Positions 12,943 through 21,396 of a DNA stretch of 64,000 nucleotides are shown one piece after another. The notes under the pieces are model-generated. The model was not told the DNA's origin and made no database searches. It was given only the letters and a program-made list of their open reading frames with translations. Source of the DNA: Candidatus Cloacimonadales bacterium. GTDB taxonomy: Bacteria > Cloacimonadota > Cloacimonadia > Cloacimonadales > JAIOQZ01. Every line of letters begins with the position of its first letter. Position 1 is the first letter of the stretch. The DNA lies in assembly GCA_963674825.1 (NCBI GenBank), contig OY771587.1, forward strand, positions 2,688,001-2,752,000, in the 5' to 3' direction. Made by a program: the position numbers and the translations under genes.

Positions 12943-14898
12943 TCAGGATTGCTGATTTCTGGTGAGATAATCCCTTCCTCGCTGGGTTATAACGCGATAA
13001 TCTCCTCTACGAACCGTGACGCCCTCACGATCGAATTTATTGATTAACAGGAGACAGATTTTGCGATTTCCGTCGATCAGATCACGGAAAGTTGCGACGG
13101 TTGCGCCTTCTTCGTTCTCGAGAAGATGTTCGAGCAGAATACGTCTGCTGTCGTCAACGATACTGGCGTGGATAAAATTTGCGTCCAGGTTGTACGCTTT
13201 GTTTCTGAATACCAGCAGTTGCAGGATCTGCTTGAGCTTAAGCTCGGGGATGCCCTGGTCGAGAGCGGCTGGCACCATTTGTGACCATAATGGCGTCTGC
13301 ATCTGGCAATCGAGAAGGAATTTTTCGATGAAGTCGATCTGCTGGATATCGCGAGGTGTGAGCTTGACATCGTGCGACTTCAATGCCCAGGTGTGTCCGA
13401 TGCGCTTGAGCTCGCTCTCTGCTTCAAGCTGCTCCAGCACGAGCTGCATGACCGCTTCGGTGGTGGAATCGCGATGGACACCGAAGATACCCATCAATTC
13501 CTCGAACGATCGTCCGCCCTCATCCAGCGGATTCCGTTTGTGATAAGTATTCAGATAGCGGATGATCTTCAGCCGAAGCTTGTCGTATCGCTTACGTTCC
13601 ATCAGGTACGCGACGCTCGGTGTGGAAAGCAGCATGATATCTTCAGGCATATCGCCGGCAATGGCCTTGTCGATCTCAGTACCTGAGATGTTCAGGAGAT
13701 TGGATAGCTCTTCGCTGGTCATGGGGGAGAGGCGTTTGCGGACTTCCGCGGCGATGAGCTCGGGAATGCCGCCCTGTACAACTTCTTTGAGCTTATGGAT
13801 CAGCTCTTCCGGGCGTCTGCGGTGATGCAGTGGATGCGCGTCGATAACTTCACCGCCACCAAGCGTAAGGTCGCTGGAGCTGTTACGGATAACAAATTTA
13901 TCGCCATGCATCAGCACGGCAGGTGCTTCCAGGTGGATCTGAACGATTGCAGTGTCGCCGCCGTCGAGGCGGTCTTTGTCGATGAGGTGGACGCGTGCCT
14001 GCCCTGCGTAGGTTCCCAGCAGGAATATGACCTGCGACCAGAGGTTAAGCGGTTTGGCATGATCGTAAAGCTTAAGCCGGGCGTCGATCATGCGCGTGGA
14101 AGGCAGGATGCGGTCGCTGACCAGCATGCCGCGCTTGTATTGGTCGATATCGAGACCGACCAGATTCATGGAAGCACGGTCACCGGTTGATATTCGCTGC
14201 ACTTCGCCACCGTGGCGTTCAAGCCTTCTGGCACGTAGTTTGTCACCGGTCGGGAGCAGATAGACGTTTGCTGAACGGTTCAGTTCTCCGCTGATCACTG
14301 AACCATTGACGATGGTTCCGTGGCCGGGAATGTTGAAAATACGGTCGATATACATACGGAAAATTTCACCTGATTCCCGTTCCGGGATATCCTGTGATAT
14401 TGCTTCCAGATGCTCGATCAATTCTGGGATGCCCTCGCCGGTTTTCGCGGAGACCTTCACGATAGGTGCGTTTTCGAAGGCGGTATCTTCCACCAACTCA
14501 CGGATATCGATTTCAGCGAACTCGAGCAATTCCTGATCGACCAGGTCTATCTTGGTAAGAACGATGATACCCTTTTCGATGCCGAGGGTGCGGATGATCT
14601 GAAGATGTTCGCGTGTTTGTGGCATCACGCCGCTGTCTGCCGCGATGACCAGCAATACAAAATCGATTCCGCTTGCGCCGGAGACCATCGTATTGACGAA
14701 GTCCGCGTGGCCCGGGACATCGACGATGCCGAGGCTGTTTCCGCTGGGGAGATCGAGGTGACTGAATCCCAGATGGATGGTGATTCCGCGCAATTGCTCT
14801 TCTTTATGGGTGTCGCAGTTGAAGCCGGTGAGCTGCTCGATGAGTGTGGTTTTTCCGTGGTCGATATGACCGGCTGTCCCCATGATCAGGTGTTTCAT
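12943..14898 (-). CDS. selB: Selenocysteine-specific elongation factor SelB
   Basis: GTAGHIDHGKT, RGITI, DVPGH, TKID G-motifs; C-terminal winged-helix end FRDLIDGNRK...RRGDYR; follows selA. Confidence 0.95.
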   Translation of the reverse strand: MKHLIMGTAGHIDHGKTTLIEQLTGFNCDTHKEEQLRGITIHLGFSHLDLPSGNSLGIVDVPGHADFVNTMVSGASGIDFVLLVIAADSGVMPQTREHLQIIRTLGIEKGIIVLTKIDLVDQELLEFAEIDIRELVEDTAFENAPIVKVSAKTGEGIPELIEHLEAISQDIPERESGEIFRMYIDRIFNIPGHGTIVNGSVISGELNRSANVYLLPTGDKLRARRLERHGGEVQRISTGDRASMNLVGLDIDQYKRGMLVSDRILPSTRMIDARLKLYDHAKPLNLWSQVIFLLGTYAGQARVHLIDKDRLDGGDTAIVQIHLEAPAVLMHGDKFVIRNSSSDLTLGGGEVIDAHPLHHRRRPEELIHKLKEVVQGGIPELIAAEVRKRLSPMTSEELSNLLNISGTEIDKAIAGDMPEDIMLLSTPSVAYLMERKRYDKLRLKIIRYLNTYHKRNPLDEGGRSFEELMGIFGVHRDSTTEAVMQLVLEQLEAESELKRIGHTWALKSHDVKLTPRDIQQIDFIEKFLLDCQMQTPLWSQMVPAALDQGIPELKLKQILQLLVFRNKAYNLDANFIHASIVDDSRRILLEHLLENEEGATVATFRDLIDGNRKICLLLINKFDREGVTVRRGDYRVITQRGRDYLTRNQQS

Positions 14899-14905
14899 GA
14901 ATGCC

Positions 14906-16291
14906 TCAATCCTTCAGGTCGGAGATCCAGCGAGCAATGATCGCGAACTGGTCGGGCTGGAGTGTGAAAACATCGAACATGAGCTTGCCTTCGCGCAGGA
15001 TGCCTACAACCGGTTTATCGGCTTGCATGAGCGCTTTCCAAATTCGTTCAGCCCATAATTTATCCTGCCTGGGCGGCAATGCCTGTACGGCAAGGCTTGG
15101 GATGCTTAGATGCGGAAGTGTTCCTCCACCGCAATAGGCTATGCTTTCGATGATCTCGGACGCGATTCCTTCCTTTGCCATCGATTCGATAAACTGCTCG
15201 GCCTTGGCGCGAAGTTCGCCCGGCGTCTGGTTAAGCAAGCTGAAAAGCGGTAACCGCGATTTCAGGCTGTCGTCGTCGATGTAGCAGCGAATAACTGCGG
15301 AAAGGGCCGCGAGGGTGAGTTTTCCGGTTCTTAGCGCGCGCATCATGGGTGCTTTGGCGATCTTGCGGATGTGTTCCTGCTTGCCGGCGATAATGCCAGC
15401 CTGCGGACCGCCCAGAAGTTTATCACCGCTGAAACACACGATGTCGACACCTGCGTCGATGGTGCTGCGAATGTCGGGTTCGTTCTGAAGCGGCAGTCCC
15501 TTGGGCTTGCGCAACAGTCCTGAACCGATGTCGTAGATGAAAATAAGGTTGTGCTTGCGTGCGAGATCGACCATCTCCTCGATTTCTGGCTCTTCGGTGA
15601 AGCCGCCGATGAAGTAGTTTGAGCGATGCGCTTTGAGGATGACGCGCGTTTTATCGGTGATGGCGTTTTCGTAGTCACCGATGCGTGTACGGTTTGTGGT
15701 GCCTACTTCTATCATCTTCGCACCACTGGCAGCCATGATGTCCGGCAGGCGAAAGGAGCCGCCGATCTCGATCAATTCACCGCGCGAGACGATCACTTCG
15801 CTTCCTTCTGCAAAGGTCTTGAGGCTAAGCATGACGCCAGCTGCGTTGTTGTTGACTACCACAGCGTCATCTGCACCGGTAACCCACCGGATCAGGTGAG
15901 AAATGTGGGTTTCTCGTTTACCACGTTTCCCTTCGTCGAGGTCGTATTCAAGATTGCTGTAGCCACGAATGATGGGGGTTAACTCGCCCAGGACGTAGTC
16001 ACCCAATGGTGCTCTGCCGAGATTGGTATGGATAACCACACCGGTCGCGTTGATCACCGGTATAAGGGACGGTTTTGCGATCCTGCGACAGCGTGTTTCG
16101 ATATTGTTAATAATCTCTTGAACCGGGATCGCCTTGCCACCATCGAGGATACTTTTGCGGATGTCTTCGAGTTCTTGCCGGATGGATAGTGTGACCAATT
16201 GCGGTCCGTAGCTTTGGATCAATTCCAGGGTCGATTTATCAGTGAGTAGGGTGTCAACGCCGGGGATTTTCTTGAACTCTTCCTGTCTCAT
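14906..16291 (-). CDS. selA: L-seryl-tRNA(Sec) selenium transferase SelA
   Basis: INATGVVIHTNLGRA, VNNNAA, SRGELIEIGGSFR, FSGDKLLGGPQAG; true start MRQEEFKK at 16291 (the ORF-track extension to 16414 runs through the tRNA gene). Confidence 0.95.
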   Translation of the reverse strand: MRQEEFKKIPGVDTLLTDKSTLELIQSYGPQLVTLSIRQELEDIRKSILDGGKAIPVQEIINNIETRCRRIAKPSLIPVINATGVVIHTNLGRAPLGDYVLGELTPIIRGYSNLEYDLDEGKRGKRETHISHLIRWVTGADDAVVVNNNAAGVMLSLKTFAEGSEVIVSRGELIEIGGSFRLPDIMAASGAKMIEVGTTNRTRIGDYENAITDKTRVILKAHRSNYFIGGFTEEPEIEEMVDLARKHNLIFIYDIGSGLLRKPKGLPLQNEPDIRSTIDAGVDIVCFSGDKLLGGPQAGIIAGKQEHIRKIAKAPMMRALRTGKLTLAALSAVIRCYIDDDSLKSRLPLFSLLNQTPGELRAKAEQFIESMAKEGIASEIIESIAYCGGGTLPHLSIPSLAVQALPPRQDKLWAERIWKALMQADKPVVGILREGKLMFDVFTLQPDQFAIIARWISDLKD

Positions 16292-16326
16292 ATTCACAGC
16301 CTGGTTATGTTGTTTTGGGTTGAAAA

Positions 16327-16421
16327 TGGCTGAGAGGGCAGGAATCGAACCTGCCACGGACGGTATTATCCGCCCGATACTGGCTTTGCAGACCAGCCGG
16401 ACCACCAGATCCATCCTCCCG
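16327..16421 (-). tRNA. selC: tRNA-Sec-type tRNA (selC) with GCA (Cys) anticodon, 7/5 fold
   Basis: Reverse complement reads CGGGAGG-AT-GGATC TGGT GGTCC-G-GCTGGT CTGCAAA GCCAGT-AT-CGGGCGG ATAATA CCGTCCG-TG-GCAGG TTCGATT CCTGC-CCTCTCA-G-CCA. It has a long D-stem with 4-nt loop, 6-bp anticodon stem, long variable arm, G73 and encoded CCA, and lies 35 nt upstream of selA. Confidence 0.92.
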
Positions 16422-16502
16422 CACGTGGTTTCCTTTTTGCGCTACGGCTTTTCATCCGTCAACGAAAAACTTGCCGTTGTCAAACTTCTTCCATAGCGTT
16501 CA

Positions 16503-17429
16503 TCAAAACTCCTTCAGCCAGCTTTTGTACATGAGCGTCTCTTTGAAACCGCACTTGTCGTAGATCGTGTGTACCGGTCCTTCATTCGAATCGAGGAATG
16601 CCCACTGCGCTTCAATCTCTTTCAGCCTGCGCAAGCCCTCGTGGAGCATGGCTCGTGCGATTCCCCTTCGGTGAAATATAGGCTCGACTCCTACCGGCTC
16701 AAAGTAGCCCGAACGGGTTACGTCATCGAACCAGATGGTAACGAATCCAGCGAGTGTGCCGTCGTCAGCCACAGCCACGATATCGAGGTCGCGTTTGTAA
16801 AGGGGTGCTTTCTGGATGTTGAGGTACCATTCCCATCCCTCGTATTTCTCATCCGGCTCGTTAGGATGAAACGCTCTCCAAGAAACCCAGCTCCGGGCGG
16901 GAAGTTCGTCTCTTGTCCCGAGTGAACGAAGGGAGAATCCTTCAGGAACCGTTACAACCGGTTCGAAATCCGGCAGATAAATTCGACCACAGCGGTCTTC
17001 GCCGGTGGCAATTCGGTATCCTCGATGGAGCAATACCTCGGTTTTCAGCTTGTCCTGCAATTCGCATGCGATGTACAGCTTTTTTCCACCGTCTTGAGAG
17101 CGTTTGAAGTAGGTTTCTTCCGCTCTTTCGACCATAAAGGCCAGAAGCTCTTTTGTGCATCGATGCGGGTGTGTCTGCAAGGCTACTGCTCCGAATGACT
17201 CCTGGAATATCGCACCCAGGAAATTTGCGTTATCGTCTCGAACGATGATTGCACATTTCTGTGGGGGCTGCTCGAGGCAGTTCTTCCAGATATGCCAGTA
17301 GAAGTAATCGAAACGCTGAACGAACCAGTTCATTTCGATGTGGTTGTTCATGAAAAAGGCATCGCGCAGGAATTGGCGCAGTTGATCGTAATCGCGATCT
17401 GGTTGGAATGATGATGTCTGAAACTTCAT
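16503..17429 (-). CDS. GNAT-family N-acetyltransferase (tandem fold)
   Basis: FEPVGVEPIFHRRGIA acetyl-CoA motif A, YDKCGF. Confidence 0.85.
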   Translation of the reverse strand: MKFQTSSFQPDRDYDQLRQFLRDAFFMNNHIEMNWFVQRFDYFYWHIWKNCLEQPPQKCAIIVRDDNANFLGAIFQESFGAVALQTHPHRCTKELLAFMVERAEETYFKRSQDGGKKLYIACELQDKLKTEVLLHRGYRIATGEDRCGRIYLPDFEPVVTVPEGFSLRSLGTRDELPARSWVSWRAFHPNEPDEKYEGWEWYLNIQKAPLYKRDLDIVAVADDGTLAGFVTIWFDDVTRSGYFEPVGVEPIFHRRGIARAMLHEGLRRLKEIEAQWAFLDSNEGPVHTIYDKCGFKETLMYKSWLKEF

Positions 17430-17805: not shown

Positions 17806-20800
17806 ATGATAAAACGAATGATCCCTCTTTTGTGGCTTATGAGCCTCGCAGTTGCGATCAGCGCCTTTACACCTGTAATCGACGGCACCAAAGATGCCGC
17901 CTGGGGTGCTACACCTACTGAAGCAACTTTCACTACGATGCAGCCTACGGAATTCAATCTGGAGGATGGCTGCTACGTAACGGACGATGACAACTATATT
18001 TATTTCGGTATCCCGACTGACAACGATCCCTGGGGCGATGGAAACGCCATCCATCTGCATCTGTCGATCGACCTTCGCAACACCGCTGCCGGCGGTACGG
18101 GCGATGCATGGGGAAGCCAGGTACAATATGGCCAACCCTATCTGCCCGATTACGACATCATTATGCAGTGGAACACGAACGATCAGAACGTTGGCTACAC
18201 TGGATTCATGACCTGGAACGGCACCGGCTGGGATCAGGTTCAGCTCGATCCGGCGAACATCGCGGGTGGCGGTGGTCAGTTCACCGAAATCGCAGTTCCC
18301 AGAAGCATGTTCGATAACGTCGAACTGGACGAAAACCTCAATATTTCTCTCTGGCAGCGTCCGGCTTGGAACAAGAACAATGCCAACGCGTGCTGCCCGG
18401 CAGACGCCGAGTTCCCATCCGATTGGGGTGATGGTGCAGGTGGAACCCAGACAACCCAGTTTGCCTATACCGTATCAACTCAGCTTGCCGATACAACTGC
18501 TCCGCGCATGTCCTCGGCAGTGCAGGACGGCCCCTCCACAGTCCGCGTAACCTTCAACGAACCGATGGGTAGCGGCGCTCAAGTGGCTGGAAACTACACA
18601 ATCGATAACAGCGCTTCAATCGATGCAGTATCGATGATTTCTGCGAGTGTGTATGATCTCACCGTCAGTGGCCTTGTTGCCGGTACGGAATACGAACTGA
18701 CAGCGACATCCGCCATTATGGACGTGTCGAACAATCCGATCGACCCTTCCTACAACAGCGATACGTTCACCGCCAGCGCTTTTGCTGATGTGACTTTTAC
18801 AATCAACGACAACAGCCATATCTATGAGAATATCAAAGTCAAGGGTAACTTCGACGAATGGGCTCTTCATCAGGCTTACGACGATGGTACCCATGGCGAC
18901 CCGACTGCCGGCGACTACTCCTGGACCTGCGTGGTAGAGAATGTACCCGAAGGTAGCTGGGAATGGGGCGCAATCGAAGACGATGGCTCACAGTATGGTA
19001 TCTGGCTCATCGATGGTCCGAACCTTCAATTTACCGTGGATAACACAGGTGCTGTGACCGGCGATGTATCGTACGATATCGCTGGTGGAATCGCACAGGA
19101 TGTCGATGTGACCTTCCGTGTCAATATCGGCTCGCTCGACGTAACCGGTGTTTCCGTGCAGGGTAGCGTTCTGCCGCTCAACTGGACGCCCGGCAGCAAC
19201 CTTATGGCCGACCCCGAAAACGATAAAATCTATGAAGCGACGATCACCTTCCCCGCAGGAAGCAACTTCGACGTTGACTACAAATTCACCTACGAATCGT
19301 CTGTCCGTGATTGGAACTGGGAAGATGTCGATAACCGCACATTCACCATCGATGATACGCAGATCTCGATGGTCCTTGATGTCAATTACTGGAACAACAA
19401 CGAAGTAAGCGAGCTGACCGCTGTGTCTTTCATGGACAGCACTACTTCGGATTACACCAACTTCCAGAGCGGCGACGTCCTGGGAGCAGGCAGCAACATC
19501 CAGATCGAAGTTGAAGCCGACGCGATCGACGTTAACAACAACTCAGGCTTCAGCCTGATGCTGCATTACCGCGTGAACCTTGGCCTCGAGCAGTCCAAGG
19601 CCTTCACCTGGGAAAGCAATGGTGAAACAGCTTCCTACTGGCGTGTCGCGCTCAACTACGGCGCTGAAATCAGTGACGATGACAATGTTCTGTTCCGCAT
19701 TGAAGGTACAGACTACAATGGCCCAACCGTCGAAGACGATAATGGTGGCAGCAATTACGAAGTAAGCCTCGGCTCATCTGGAACCCAGCAGGATGTAGAT
19801 GTGACCTTCACATTCAACCTGGGCACTTCCGACGCGATCGAAGTTGGCCTGGTTGGAACTGTCGCTCCACTCAGCCCGTTAGGATCGGACAACCTGATGG
19901 TTGACGACAACGGCGATAAAATCTATACAAAGACTGTCACTTTCCCGGCAGGATCGCCCTACGCAGTGTCTTATAACTATGCCCGTAACCTGCCGGAAAC
20001 ACGCTCCTGGCAGATCGAACCAAGTATCAGCAGAAGTTTCAATCTCGACGACGTGACCGGAACCATGGATCTCGGTGTCGAGTATTGGGAAGGTGTGGCG
20101 GTTTCCGAACTGACCGATGTATTCTTCCTGGACAACGAGACTTCGGTTTATTCAAACTTCGCCAGTGGTGGATCGGTTGATACCGGTAGCGATATCCAAA
20201 TCGAAGCGCAGGTCGAAGGTGTTGACGCCAATGCAAATTCCGATTTCCAGGTAACATTGTATTACCATGTGAATTCAGGAGAGCTTCAATCAAAAACATT
20301 TGGATGGGCAAGCAACTACGAAGGAAATTCCTGGTGGCATGTGATGCTCGAGAACGGTGTCGAAGTAAATGATGGCGACGATGTGAGTTTCTATATCGAA
20401 GCTACTGATTACAACGGTCCGGTCATCACCGATGACAACGACGGTAGCTCTTACACTGTCAGCGTACTCGGTGCCACGACATCGCAAGATGTCACCGTGA
20501 CATTCTCTATCAACGTTGGTGCGCTCAATGCCGACAGCATTTCGGTTCAGGGCAGCGTTGCTCCGCTTAATTGGATAGCCGGTTCAACACCGATGACCGA
20601 TGAAGATGGCGACCGCACTTACACTGTTGATGTCCTCTTCCCGGCAGGCTCACCTTTCACGGTTGAATACAAGTTCACCCGCGAAACGCCTGCAACCCGT
20701 GAATGGGCCTGGGAATACATAGGTAACCGCAGCTTCCAGATTCAGGATGCCGAGTCTACACAGGTTCTGGATCTCGACTACTGGAATCTCAACGAAGTCC

Positions 20801-21396
20801 ACGAAATGACAAGTGCCGCTTTTGCTGACAGCAGTGCATCCGATTACACCAACTTTGCCAGTGGCGACGTTCTTCCCATGGGCAGCGATGTCCTGATCGA
20901 AGCCTATACCGGTGGAATCGATACCAACTACAATTCTGGCTACGAAGTGACACTTCACTACATCATCAATGGCGGAACCGAGCAAACGACAGTGCTGAAC
21001 TGGCAGGGTAGCGATGCGGAATATTCCTGGTGGCGAATCGGCCTCGTGAATGGCGACACCGTCAGTGATTACGATCAGGTTGAATTCTGGATCACAGCAA
21101 CCGACTACAACGGCCCCGTCTTCACCGATGATAATGGTGGCGAGAACTACACCGTCAGCGTTGGTCAGGCAGCACCTCCGGCAGCACCGCAGGATGTCAT
21201 GATCACCGTCGTCGGAACCGATGTCCAGATATCCTGGGCAGCCGTAACCGGCGCGACGAGCTATCGTCTGCAGTCTTGCGATGCACCGGATGGAACCTTC
21301 ACGAACGTAACGGTTACTACCAATACAAGCGTGACCATCACCAATGGCGCGGGTTCTGCCGATATGAAGTTCTATCGCGTTAAGGCAATGAATTAA
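17806..21396 (+). CDS. Large secreted multi-module carbohydrate-binding protein: DOMON-like and Ig-like domains, three tandem CBM20-like + CBM25-like units, C-terminal beta-sandwich
   Basis: Signal peptide; repeats QDVDVTFRVN / QDVDVTFTFN / QDVTVTFSIN...VTFPAGS...YKF...W and ...DYNGP..DDNGG.NY; YDDGTHGD..AGD motif; ggagg RBS. Confidence 0.75.
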   Translation: MIKRMIPLLWLMSLAVAISAFTPVIDGTKDAAWGATPTEATFTTMQPTEFNLEDGCYVTDDDNYIYFGIPTDNDPWGDGNAIHLHLSIDLRNTAAGGTGDAWGSQVQYGQPYLPDYDIIMQWNTNDQNVGYTGFMTWNGTGWDQVQLDPANIAGGGGQFTEIAVPRSMFDNVELDENLNISLWQRPAWNKNNANACCPADAEFPSDWGDGAGGTQTTQFAYTVSTQLADTTAPRMSSAVQDGPSTVRVTFNEPMGSGAQVAGNYTIDNSASIDAVSMISASVYDLTVSGLVAGTEYELTATSAIMDVSNNPIDPSYNSDTFTASAFADVTFTINDNSHIYENIKVKGNFDEWALHQAYDDGTHGDPTAGDYSWTCVVENVPEGSWEWGAIEDDGSQYGIWLIDGPNLQFTVDNTGAVTGDVSYDIAGGIAQDVDVTFRVNIGSLDVTGVSVQGSVLPLNWTPGSNLMADPENDKIYEATITFPAGSNFDVDYKFTYESSVRDWNWEDVDNRTFTIDDTQISMVLDVNYWNNNEVSELTAVSFMDSTTSDYTNFQSGDVLGAGSNIQIEVEADAIDVNNNSGFSLMLHYRVNLGLEQSKAFTWESNGETASYWRVALNYGAEISDDDNVLFRIEGTDYNGPTVEDDNGGSNYEVSLGSSGTQQDVDVTFTFNLGTSDAIEVGLVGTVAPLSPLGSDNLMVDDNGDKIYTKTVTFPAGSPYAVSYNYARNLPETRSWQIEPSISRSFNLDDVTGTMDLGVEYWEGVAVSELTDVFFLDNETSVYSNFASGGSVDTGSDIQIEAQVEGVDANANSDFQVTLYYHVNSGELQSKTFGWASNYEGNSWWHVMLENGVEVNDGDDVSFYIEATDYNGPVITDDNDGSSYTVSVLGATTSQDVTVTFSINVGALNADSISVQGSVAPLNWIAGSTPMTDEDGDRTYTVDVLFPAGSPFTVEYKFTRETPATREWAWEYIGNRSFQIQDAESTQVLDLDYWNLNEVHEMTSAAFADSSASDYTNFASGDVLPMGSDVLIEAYTGGIDTNYNSGYEVTLHYIINGGTEQTTVLNWQGSDAEYSWWRIGLVNGDTVSDYDQVEFWITATDYNGPVFTDDNGGENYTVSVGQAAPPAAPQDVMITVVGTDVQISWAAVTGATSYRLQSCDAPDGTFTNVTVTTNTSVTITNGAGSADMKFYRVKAMN

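What the first reader, a model, noticed from the sequence alone, without database searches (positions are those of the whole stretch)
16327..16421. The same tRNA has a 12-bp (7/5) acceptor branch and an initiator-like C1:A72 mismatch
Seen: acceptor CGGGAGG/CCTCTCA gives six pairs plus a terminal C:A mismatch, stacked on a 5-bp T-stem. Established: canonical bacterial tRNA-Sec is 8/5 (13 bp), and C1:A72 is the tRNA-fMet hallmark that weakens EF-Tu binding and blocks peptidyl-tRNA hydrolase. Inference: a sense-codon-reading Ser/Sec-tRNA must be kept away from EF-Tu or it would mistranslate every Cys codon, so the mismatch may be a borrowed anti-determinant. An alternative fold starting at 16422 with a bulged A would consume the encoded CCA and looks less likely.
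Basis: partly seen in the sequence, partly recalled or inferred. Interest (0 to 1): 0.75.

Follow-up and report, generated by a model that had tools for sequence, protein, structure and literature searches.

The report
Short selenocysteine tRNA with open end
This is a known short type of selenocysteine tRNA that here reads cysteine codons, and its unpaired first base pair is real but is shared by relatives that read the ordinary stop codon, so it is a lineage trait rather than a special safety catch for reading cysteine codons.

Summary
Observation confirmed: window 16327-16421 (-) is a tRNA-Sec (Rfam RF01852) with a 7/5 branch, C1:A72, G73, encoded CCA and anticodon GCA, just upstream of intact selA-selB. 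The 7/5 fold is the published 'Cloacimonetes type' (PMC5330540).

Among 96 distinct 7/5-type genes, 1:72 is mismatched in 19/20 GCA and 22/27 UCA Cloacimonadota genes, but in 4/45 from other phyla. C:A is enriched with GCA (13/20 vs 2/27). The second, UGA-reading copy in this genome has A1:G72, one GCA gene has A1:U72, an Aeromonas-genus Cys-codon (ACA) tRNA-Sec has G1:C72, and the host initiator is C1:U72. So the mismatch is neither needed for nor specific to sense-codon reading.

No member has C1:G72, G1:C72 or U1:A72 (0/96), and the E. coli EF-Tu antideterminant box is mostly absent, so an auxiliary EF-Tu-dampening role stays plausible but untested. Function as Sec tRNA on UGY codons is supported: selD Sec-site codons track the anticodon, and 10/10 'KLGPC' Cys-codon selD genes keep a SECIS-like hairpin with loop CGUGY. 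Verdict: new variant of a known kind, moderate interest.

The parts
16327..16421 (-). selC: Cloacimonetes-type 7/5 tRNA-Sec, anticodon GCA, 95 nt with encoded CCA
16421..16421 (-). C1 (predicted mature 5' end; not mapped experimentally)
16331..16331 (-). A72, mismatched with C1
16415..16421 (-). acceptor stem 5' strand (7 nt)
16331..16337 (-). acceptor stem 3' strand (7 nt)
16398..16413 (-). D arm: 5 bp plus a U.G sixth pair, 4-nt loop UGGU (tRNA-Sec type), one-base linker A8
   Evidence: PMC5330540 section 10
16379..16397 (-). 6-bp anticodon stem and loop; anticodon GCA at 16387-16389
16357..16376 (-). long variable arm, 7 bp with 6-nt loop
16338..16354 (-). T arm, 5 bp (G49:C65, C50:G64, A51:U63, G52:C62, G53:C61)
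16327..16330 (-). G73 discriminator and encoded CCA
14906..16288 (-). selA, 460 aa from the likely ATG, PLP-lysine motif aligned with Aquifex SelA
12943..14898 (-). selB, 651 aa, GTPase domain to C-terminal winged helices

Best explanation
The gene is a Cloacimonetes-type 12-bp (7/5) tRNA-Sec. SerRS charges it (G73, G2:C71, long variable arm), the adjacent SelA converts Ser to Sec, and the adjacent SelB delivers it to UGC/UGU codons followed by a SECIS hairpin (in this genome the selD at G000:C1:134294, minus strand). These steps are inferred from genes and sequence, not assayed. The 1:72 position is weak across the whole 7/5 family (A:U or G.U) and fully open in most Cloacimonadota (A:G, C:A, A:A), whatever the anticodon. 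Most likely, delivery by SelB released the need for a closed 1:72 pair, and mild selection keeps a strong pair from forming because a 12-bp branch that lacks the E. coli antideterminant box would then bind EF-Tu better. The open end is thus an auxiliary, dispensable EF-Tu damper shared by UGA- and Cys-codon readers; C:A is one inherited state of it, not a feature taken from the initiator or evolved for Cys codons.
For: Shown: mismatch in 41/47 Cloacimonadota vs 4/45 other-phylum genes; 19/20 GCA vs 22/27 UCA. 0/96 with C1:G72, G1:C72 or U1:A72 although C1 and G72 are both common (about 8 C:G expected if the two positions were independent among the 47; kin not independent). 31/31 Rfam-found Cloacimonadota loci have G7:C66, G49:C65, C50:G64, A51:U63 against the E. 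coli box C7:G66, G49.U65, C50:G64 (PMC11231383, PMC9976931 passages). A 14-row SelB clade (support 97-99) reads UGA with mismatched tRNAs. Host elongator tRNAs all have paired or wobble 1:72; of 53 tRNA calls only the initiator and the two selC genes are mismatched. selD Sec-site codon: TGA in 11 matches from 10 genomes, all with a UCA selC; no stop in any of the 16 GCA-only genomes with a selD match. Established: 1x72 mismatch lowers EF-Tu binding in E. coli (PMC6393288).
Against: No binding or RNA data (no RNA run listed). 40/96 family members have A1:U72, a pair that elongator tRNAs of this genome also use (5 A:U tRNAs), so they must avoid EF-Tu by other means, which could make the mismatch superfluous. 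The absence of C:G could reflect few independent changes on the tree. The trees do not resolve whether the mismatch came before the GCA anticodon. C:A is enriched with GCA (13/20 vs 2/27), which this reading puts down to shared ancestry.
Confidence: 0.4

Rival explanations
1. Neutral drift: SelA, SelB and SerRS of this lineage ignore 1:72 and CCA is encoded, so the pair simply decays.
For: Five states in Cloacimonadota (A:G, C:A, A:U, A:A, U.G). CCA is encoded in 43/47 Cloacimonadota vs 8/45 others, paralleling the mismatch. Paired variants exist with either anticodon.
Against: Position 1 is limited to A/C (2 U) and 72 to A/G/U, and C:G and U:A never occur. 7 mismatched genes lack encoded CCA.
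Confidence: 0.22
2. Length compensation: a frayed end lengthens the single-stranded 3' arm so that a branch one pair short still reaches the SelA active site or the SelB amino-acid pocket.
For: The 13-bp branch matters for SelA/SelB in E. coli (PMC6267555, PMC4605307 passages); the CCA end lies far from the SelA site in the closed structure (PMC11047290 passage); the family never has a strong terminal pair.
Against: Aeromonas-type 12-bp tRNA-Sec has G1:C72 in 28/28 loci, so 12-bp branches can work closed. No structural test was run.
Confidence: 0.13
3. One reading: the mismatch was selected because this tRNA reads Cys codons and is the main barrier to EF-Tu.
For: 19/20 GCA genes are mismatched and C:A is enriched with GCA; GCA was found only in the phylum where mismatches are common (20/47 vs 0/45).
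Against: UCA genes are mismatched too (22/27); GCA with A1:U72 (L034); ACA with G1:C72 (L311); host initiator is C1:U72; the mismatch alone is leaky in E. coli (PMC6393288).
Confidence: 0.1
4. Synthetase tuning: breaking A1:U72 removes a TrpRS identity pair (G73, A1-U72, G2-C71 with C35, A36), and lack of C72 attenuates serylation.
For: Identity table in PMC9976931; host tRNA-Trp and tRNA-Gln have A1:U72 with G73.
Against: 35/45 other-phylum genes keep A1:U72 with UCA.
Confidence: 0.08
5. The mature tRNA starts elsewhere: at G2 (6-bp stem) or at 16422 with G-1:C74 and C1:G73 and a bulged A72.
For: The precursor fold with 16422 is slightly more stable in silico; G2 is invariant in the set analysed (partly by my filter).
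Against: G at -1 in 4/15 C:A genes only; A1:G72 genes cannot form it; it would consume G73 and the CCA; position 1 is constrained while -1 takes all four bases.
Confidence: 0.07

Closest known systems
Cloacimonetes-type 12-bp (7+5) tRNA-Sec (Mukai et al. 2016, as described in PMC5330540)
   Same: 7/5 branch, one-base linker between acceptor and D stem, G73, next to selA and selB; same phylum (inferred).
   Different: A 1:72 mismatch and a GCA anticodon are not mentioned in the passages I could read; the original paper and its supplement were not available, so they may be shown there.
Cys-codon-reading tRNA-Sec (UGU in Aeromonas salmonicida; UGC/UGU per PMC8124441 and PMC10778597)
   Same: tRNA-Sec body with a Cys anticodon, 12-bp branch, SECIS-dependent recoding.
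   Different: The Aeromonas-genus example found here has anticodon ACA, a bulged acceptor and G1:C72; the window tRNA has GCA, no bulge and C1xA72.
Canonical bacterial tRNA-Sec (8/5; E. coli, Aquifex)
   Same: Long D stem with 4-nt loop, 6-bp anticodon stem, long variable arm, G73, SelA/SelB.
   Different: 13 bp vs 12 bp; UCA vs GCA; antideterminant box C7:G66/G49.U65/C50:G64 vs G7:C66/G49:C65/C50:G64.
Bacterial initiator tRNA-fMet
   Same: Mismatch at 1:72 (C1xA72 in E. coli).
   Different: No three G-C pairs at the end of the anticodon stem (it ends in U.G), G73, long variable arm, no CAU; this host's initiator is C1xU72.
selC* tRNA-Cys (8/4; PMC5389517, PMC7609411)
   Same: tRNA-Sec-like body, GCA anticodon possible, second selB in the genome.
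   Different: selC* has U73, an 8/4 branch with bulged A51a and is charged by CysRS; the window tRNA has G73, 7/5, no bulge, and lies beside selA.

Membership tests
Cloacimonetes-type 7/5 tRNA-Sec | 12-bp branch, 7+5 | tested here: met
   (six pairs plus open 1:72, 5-bp T stem)
Cloacimonetes-type 7/5 tRNA-Sec | one nucleotide missing in the acceptor-D linker | tested here: met
   A8 alone precedes a U.G-closed 6-bp D stem (that sixth pair forms in 12 of 20 rows)
Cloacimonetes-type 7/5 tRNA-Sec | G73, and selA/selB/selD in the genome | tested here: met
tRNA-Sec (functional) | charged with Ser, converted to Sec, delivered by SelB | not testable with these tools
   inferred from gene context and selD codon/SECIS covariation
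Cys-codon Sec recoding system | matching codon plus SECIS in a selenoprotein gene | tested here: met
   G000 selD (C1:134294, -): TGT at the Sec site, 8-bp hairpin, loop CGUGU at +16; 2.4% of 2000 synonymous re-codings do as well; 10/10 genes of this selD type keep it. In silico only.
Canonical 8/5 tRNA-Sec | 13-bp branch | tested here: not met
Canonical 8/5 tRNA-Sec | EF-Tu antideterminant box C7:G66, G49.U65, C50:G64 | tested here: not met
   1 of 3 pairs present
Initiator tRNA-fMet | 1x72 mismatch | tested here: met
Initiator tRNA-fMet | [quoted passage not shown] | tested here: not met
selC* tRNA-Cys | U73, 8/4 branch, A51a bulge | tested here: not met
   G73, 7/5, no bulge
1x72 mismatch as EF-Tu antideterminant | weaker EF-Tu binding that is restored by pairing | not testable with these tools
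   needs a binding assay
1x72 mismatch as EF-Tu antideterminant | mismatch confined to, or required in, sense-codon readers | tested here: not met
   22/27 UCA mismatched; GCA with A1:U72; ACA with G1:C72

The most novel reading that the evidence does not exclude
Cloacimonadota replaced the classic tRNA-Sec EF-Tu antideterminants (13-bp length, 7/49/50 box) with an open 1:72 pair, and this let a large part of the phylum move selenocysteine onto Cys codons with its own SECIS loop (CGUGY instead of a GGR-type loop); genomes such as this one run two tRNA-Sec/SelB sets side by side, one for UGA and one for UGY, as orthogonal recoding channels.
Probability: 0.2. Interest if true: 0.72.

Novelty: new variant of a known kind. 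Interest (0 to 1): 0.4.

Why it matters
A 12-bp tRNA-Sec that reads Cys codons must avoid EF-Tu without the known antideterminants, and how it does so is open. The family supplies natural variants (C:A, A:G, A:A, A:U, with UCA or GCA) that make the question directly testable, and 12-bp Sec tRNAs are the scaffolds wanted for EF-Tu-driven selenoprotein engineering (PMC11231383). Practically, such genes are annotated as tRNA-Cys and their selenoproteins as Cys proteins, so Sec use in this phylum is likely undercounted. The mismatch by itself is a modest detail on a published tRNA type.

Tried and rejected
De novo scans of G000 for UGA read-through or Cys+SECIS genes were too noisy; only the selD at 134294 stood out, and outputs were cut, so parts were not seen. 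Family searches for GrdB, MvhD, AhpC, thioredoxin-3, DsrE, molybdopterin Fe4S4 and Rdx in 5 genomes each found no UGA selenoprotein in G000; G000 MvhD has Cys and lacks the hairpin seen in G035. No RNA holder listed, so the 5' end and expression could not be checked. No sigma-70 promoter or terminator match at 16200-16700. The careful SelB tree did not finish; quick and FastTree trees leave the backbone open, and the tRNA tree is too short to order events. Mukai 2016 was not held. Earlier findings of the scan: nothing. Rejected: assembly error; selC* tRNA-Cys (G73, 7/5); pseudogene (covariation and intact selA/selB); the alternative fold from 16422 as the conserved form.

Full report
1. Observation. 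The stretch 16327-16421 on the minus strand folds as described: six acceptor pairs, C1xA72, a 5-bp T stem, G73 and encoded CCA. Rfam scores it as tRNA-Sec (54.8 bits, cut-off 47); ARAGORN calls it tRNA-Cys and trims the mismatch. The anticodon is GCA. Contigs of two runs from one sample match 16000-16700 without a difference (possibly the source DNA), and 3 of 3 same-genus genomes carry the same C1:A72 and GCA, so it is not a base-call error. In 20 hand-picked homologues the 7/5 structure is supported by covariation (95.6% paired; 0/500 shuffles reach it, a control that ignores relatedness) and 1:72 is the least paired position. The alternative fold from 16422 is slightly more stable for this precursor, but its G-1 is present in only 4 of 15 C1:A72 genes.

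2. Context. selA (14906-16288) and selB (12943-14898) follow directly and align over their length with solved SelA and SelB. The genome (G000, one contig) also holds an ordinary tRNA-Cys, a second tRNA-Sec with UCA and A1:G72 beside a second, divergent selB, and two selD genes. The phylum label Cloacimonadota is my inference: the window tRNA is identical to that of a record titled Ca. Cloacimonadales (L140).

3. What is known. PMC5330540 (passages and section 10 read) states that Mukai et al. 2016 described a 'Cloacimonetes type' tRNA-Sec with 12 bp (7+5) lacking one linker nucleotide, so the first half of the finding is published. PMC8124441 and PMC10778597 (passages) state that some bacteria encode Sec at UGC/UGU with matching anticodons. 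Mukai 2016 itself was not held and its supplement was not seen; it may show the GCA anticodon or the mismatch. Searches returned no paper whose listing or passages discuss a 1:72 mismatch in tRNA-Sec or UGC recoding in this phylum; the library lacks most subscription papers.

4. Comparative test of the mismatch. Sources: RF01852 in 41 genomes of the order (32 over cut-off), regions fetched by place, and a GTDB pattern scan that stopped at 121 loci (the pattern fixes the D loop and T arm, so it is a biased sample). One search parsed 162 rows, dropped 2 cut by contig ends or N, set aside 45 rows of other tRNA-Sec types (including L154, a 7/5-like gene with A1:A72 excluded by my G2:C71 filter), and reduced 115 rows to 96 distinct genes. 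Results: Cloacimonadota GCA, 20 genes: C:A 13, A:G 4, A:A 2, A:U 1. Cloacimonadota UCA, 27 genes: A:G 19, A:U 3, C:A 2, U.G 2, A:A 1. Other phyla (Bacteroidota, Fibrobacterota, Ignavibacteria, Lentisphaerae and others), 45 genes, all UCA: A:U 35, G.U 6, A:C 3, A:A 1. Four unclassified genes were kept apart. So the mismatch follows the phylum (41/47 vs 4/45), not the anticodon (19/20 vs 22/27). C:A is enriched with GCA (13/20 vs 2/27), which shared ancestry can explain; kin are not independent and the trees do not settle the order of events. The host initiator has C1:U72, not C1:A72.

5. Evidence that the open end is not pure noise. No gene of 96 has C1:G72, G1:C72 or U1:A72, although C1 and G72 are each common in Cloacimonadota. 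All 31 Rfam-found loci have G7:C66, G49:C65, C50:G64, so only one of the three E. coli antideterminant pairs (PMC11231383, PMC9976931, PMC6267555; passages) is present, in a branch of the length EF-Tu prefers. In E. coli a 1x72 mismatch lowers but does not abolish EF-Tu binding (PMC6393288; passages). Against this, 40 of 96 members have A1:U72, a pair that ordinary elongators of this genome use, so other barriers must exist; I recall that A51:U63 is a weaker EF-Tu pair than G51:C63, which comes from no call.

6. What the tRNA does. In the 41 genomes, selD has TGA at the Sec site in 11 matches from 10 genomes, all of which have a UCA selC, and no stop in the 16 GCA-only genomes with a selD match; G000, G002 and G003 have both tRNAs and Cys-codon selD genes. 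Of 35 selD loci examined, 33 were parsed. All 10 Cys-codon genes of the 'KLGPC' type carry a 7-8-bp hairpin with loop CGUGY starting 16 nt after the codon, with paired changes in the stem; synonymous re-coding reaches such a stem in 0.7-8.5% of trials per gene. UGA genes have purine-rich loops (GGG, GGA and similar) and weaker support in several cases. The other 14 Cys-codon selD genes are mixed: 2 NifS-fused genes have a 7-bp stem (2.6% and 5.1% of trials), 8 more fused genes and 4 'KLSP' genes from GCA genomes or one without a selC match (5 in all with G033) show no convincing hairpin and probably encode plain Cys. The position fits a bacterial SECIS (conserved G about 20 nt downstream; PMC4605307 passage). 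This supports Sec insertion at UGY codons, in silico only. No UGA selenoprotein was found in G000 by searches that were not exhaustive.

7. Mechanism and odds. Shown: structure, gene context, distribution of 1:72 states, selD codon and hairpin pattern. Inferred: charging, conversion, SelB delivery, and any role of the mismatch. Best reading (0.40): released constraint plus mild selection against a strong pair, an auxiliary EF-Tu damper common to UGA and Cys-codon readers.

8. Verdict. The fold is a known type, Cys-codon Sec recoding is a known phenomenon, and the open 1:72 pair is a real, phylum-wide detail that I did not find described. New variant of a known kind; interest 0.40. Papers seen: PMC5330540 (passages, section 10), PMC5389517 (first fifth of the text), and passages only of PMC7609411, PMC8124441, PMC6393288, PMC11231383, PMC10778597, PMC4605307, PMC11047290, PMC9976931, PMC6267555; no supplements were read.

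Noticed in passing
G000:C1:1971717-1973668 (L001, L041): Second tRNA-Sec (UCA, A1:G72) divergent from a second, shorter (600 aa), long-branch selB; also in G002 and G003, not found in G001. No UGA selenoprotein target found in G000.
   Followed up: partly
G000:C1:133299-134423 (-) and relatives (L046, L175, L177, L187, L191, L192, L194, L320-L322): selD with a Cys codon at the Sec site and a conserved SECIS-like hairpin with loop CGUGY; UGA homologues have purine-rich loops, changing the protein from GPG to GPC. Possible SECIS switch that accompanies the codon switch.
   Followed up: yes
G000:C1:153606-155801 (+): Second selD fused behind a NifS-like domain (731 aa), Cys codon, no convincing hairpin in this genome.
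   Followed up: partly
G000:C1:483121-483197 (-), 130001-130297 (-): Host initiator tRNA has C1:U72; the three tRNA-Gln genes have A1:U72 with G73.
   Followed up: partly
L311 (G080:C26:342938-343025): Aeromonas-genus tRNA-Sec with anticodon ACA and G1:C72, 1 of 28 loci; fits the published UGU-Sec case.
   Followed up: partly
G018, G036, G026, G031 (family f12): UCA tRNAs whose SelB groups with GCA-associated SelB (with G017, support 92-94): possible return from GCA to UCA.
   Followed up: partly
G012, G016, G022, G028, G038: GCA selC kept although selD lacks a hairpin (or was not found, G038): other UGY-Sec targets should exist.
   Followed up: no
L044 (G022:C3:1598000-1610000): A second copy of the 3' half of selC nearby, as left by an element integrating into the tRNA gene.
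   Followed up: no
G005:C274:600-2480 (L212): selB with an internal TAG; no selA, selD or selC match in this 81%-complete genome: possible decay of the Sec trait.
   Followed up: no
L051-L171: The 7/5 'Cloacimonetes type' tRNA-Sec also occurs in records titled Bacteroidales, Fibrobacterota, Ignavibacteriaceae, Lentisphaeria, Kiritimatiellia, Desulfobacterota, Riflebacteria and others, with a related SelB clade.
   Followed up: partly
L063/L064, L164: Two selC copies close together in an Endozoicomonadaceae and a Photobacterium record.
   Followed up: no
window 17806-21396 (+): 1196-aa secreted-looking protein with repeated domains upstream of the sel cluster; not examined.
   Followed up: no
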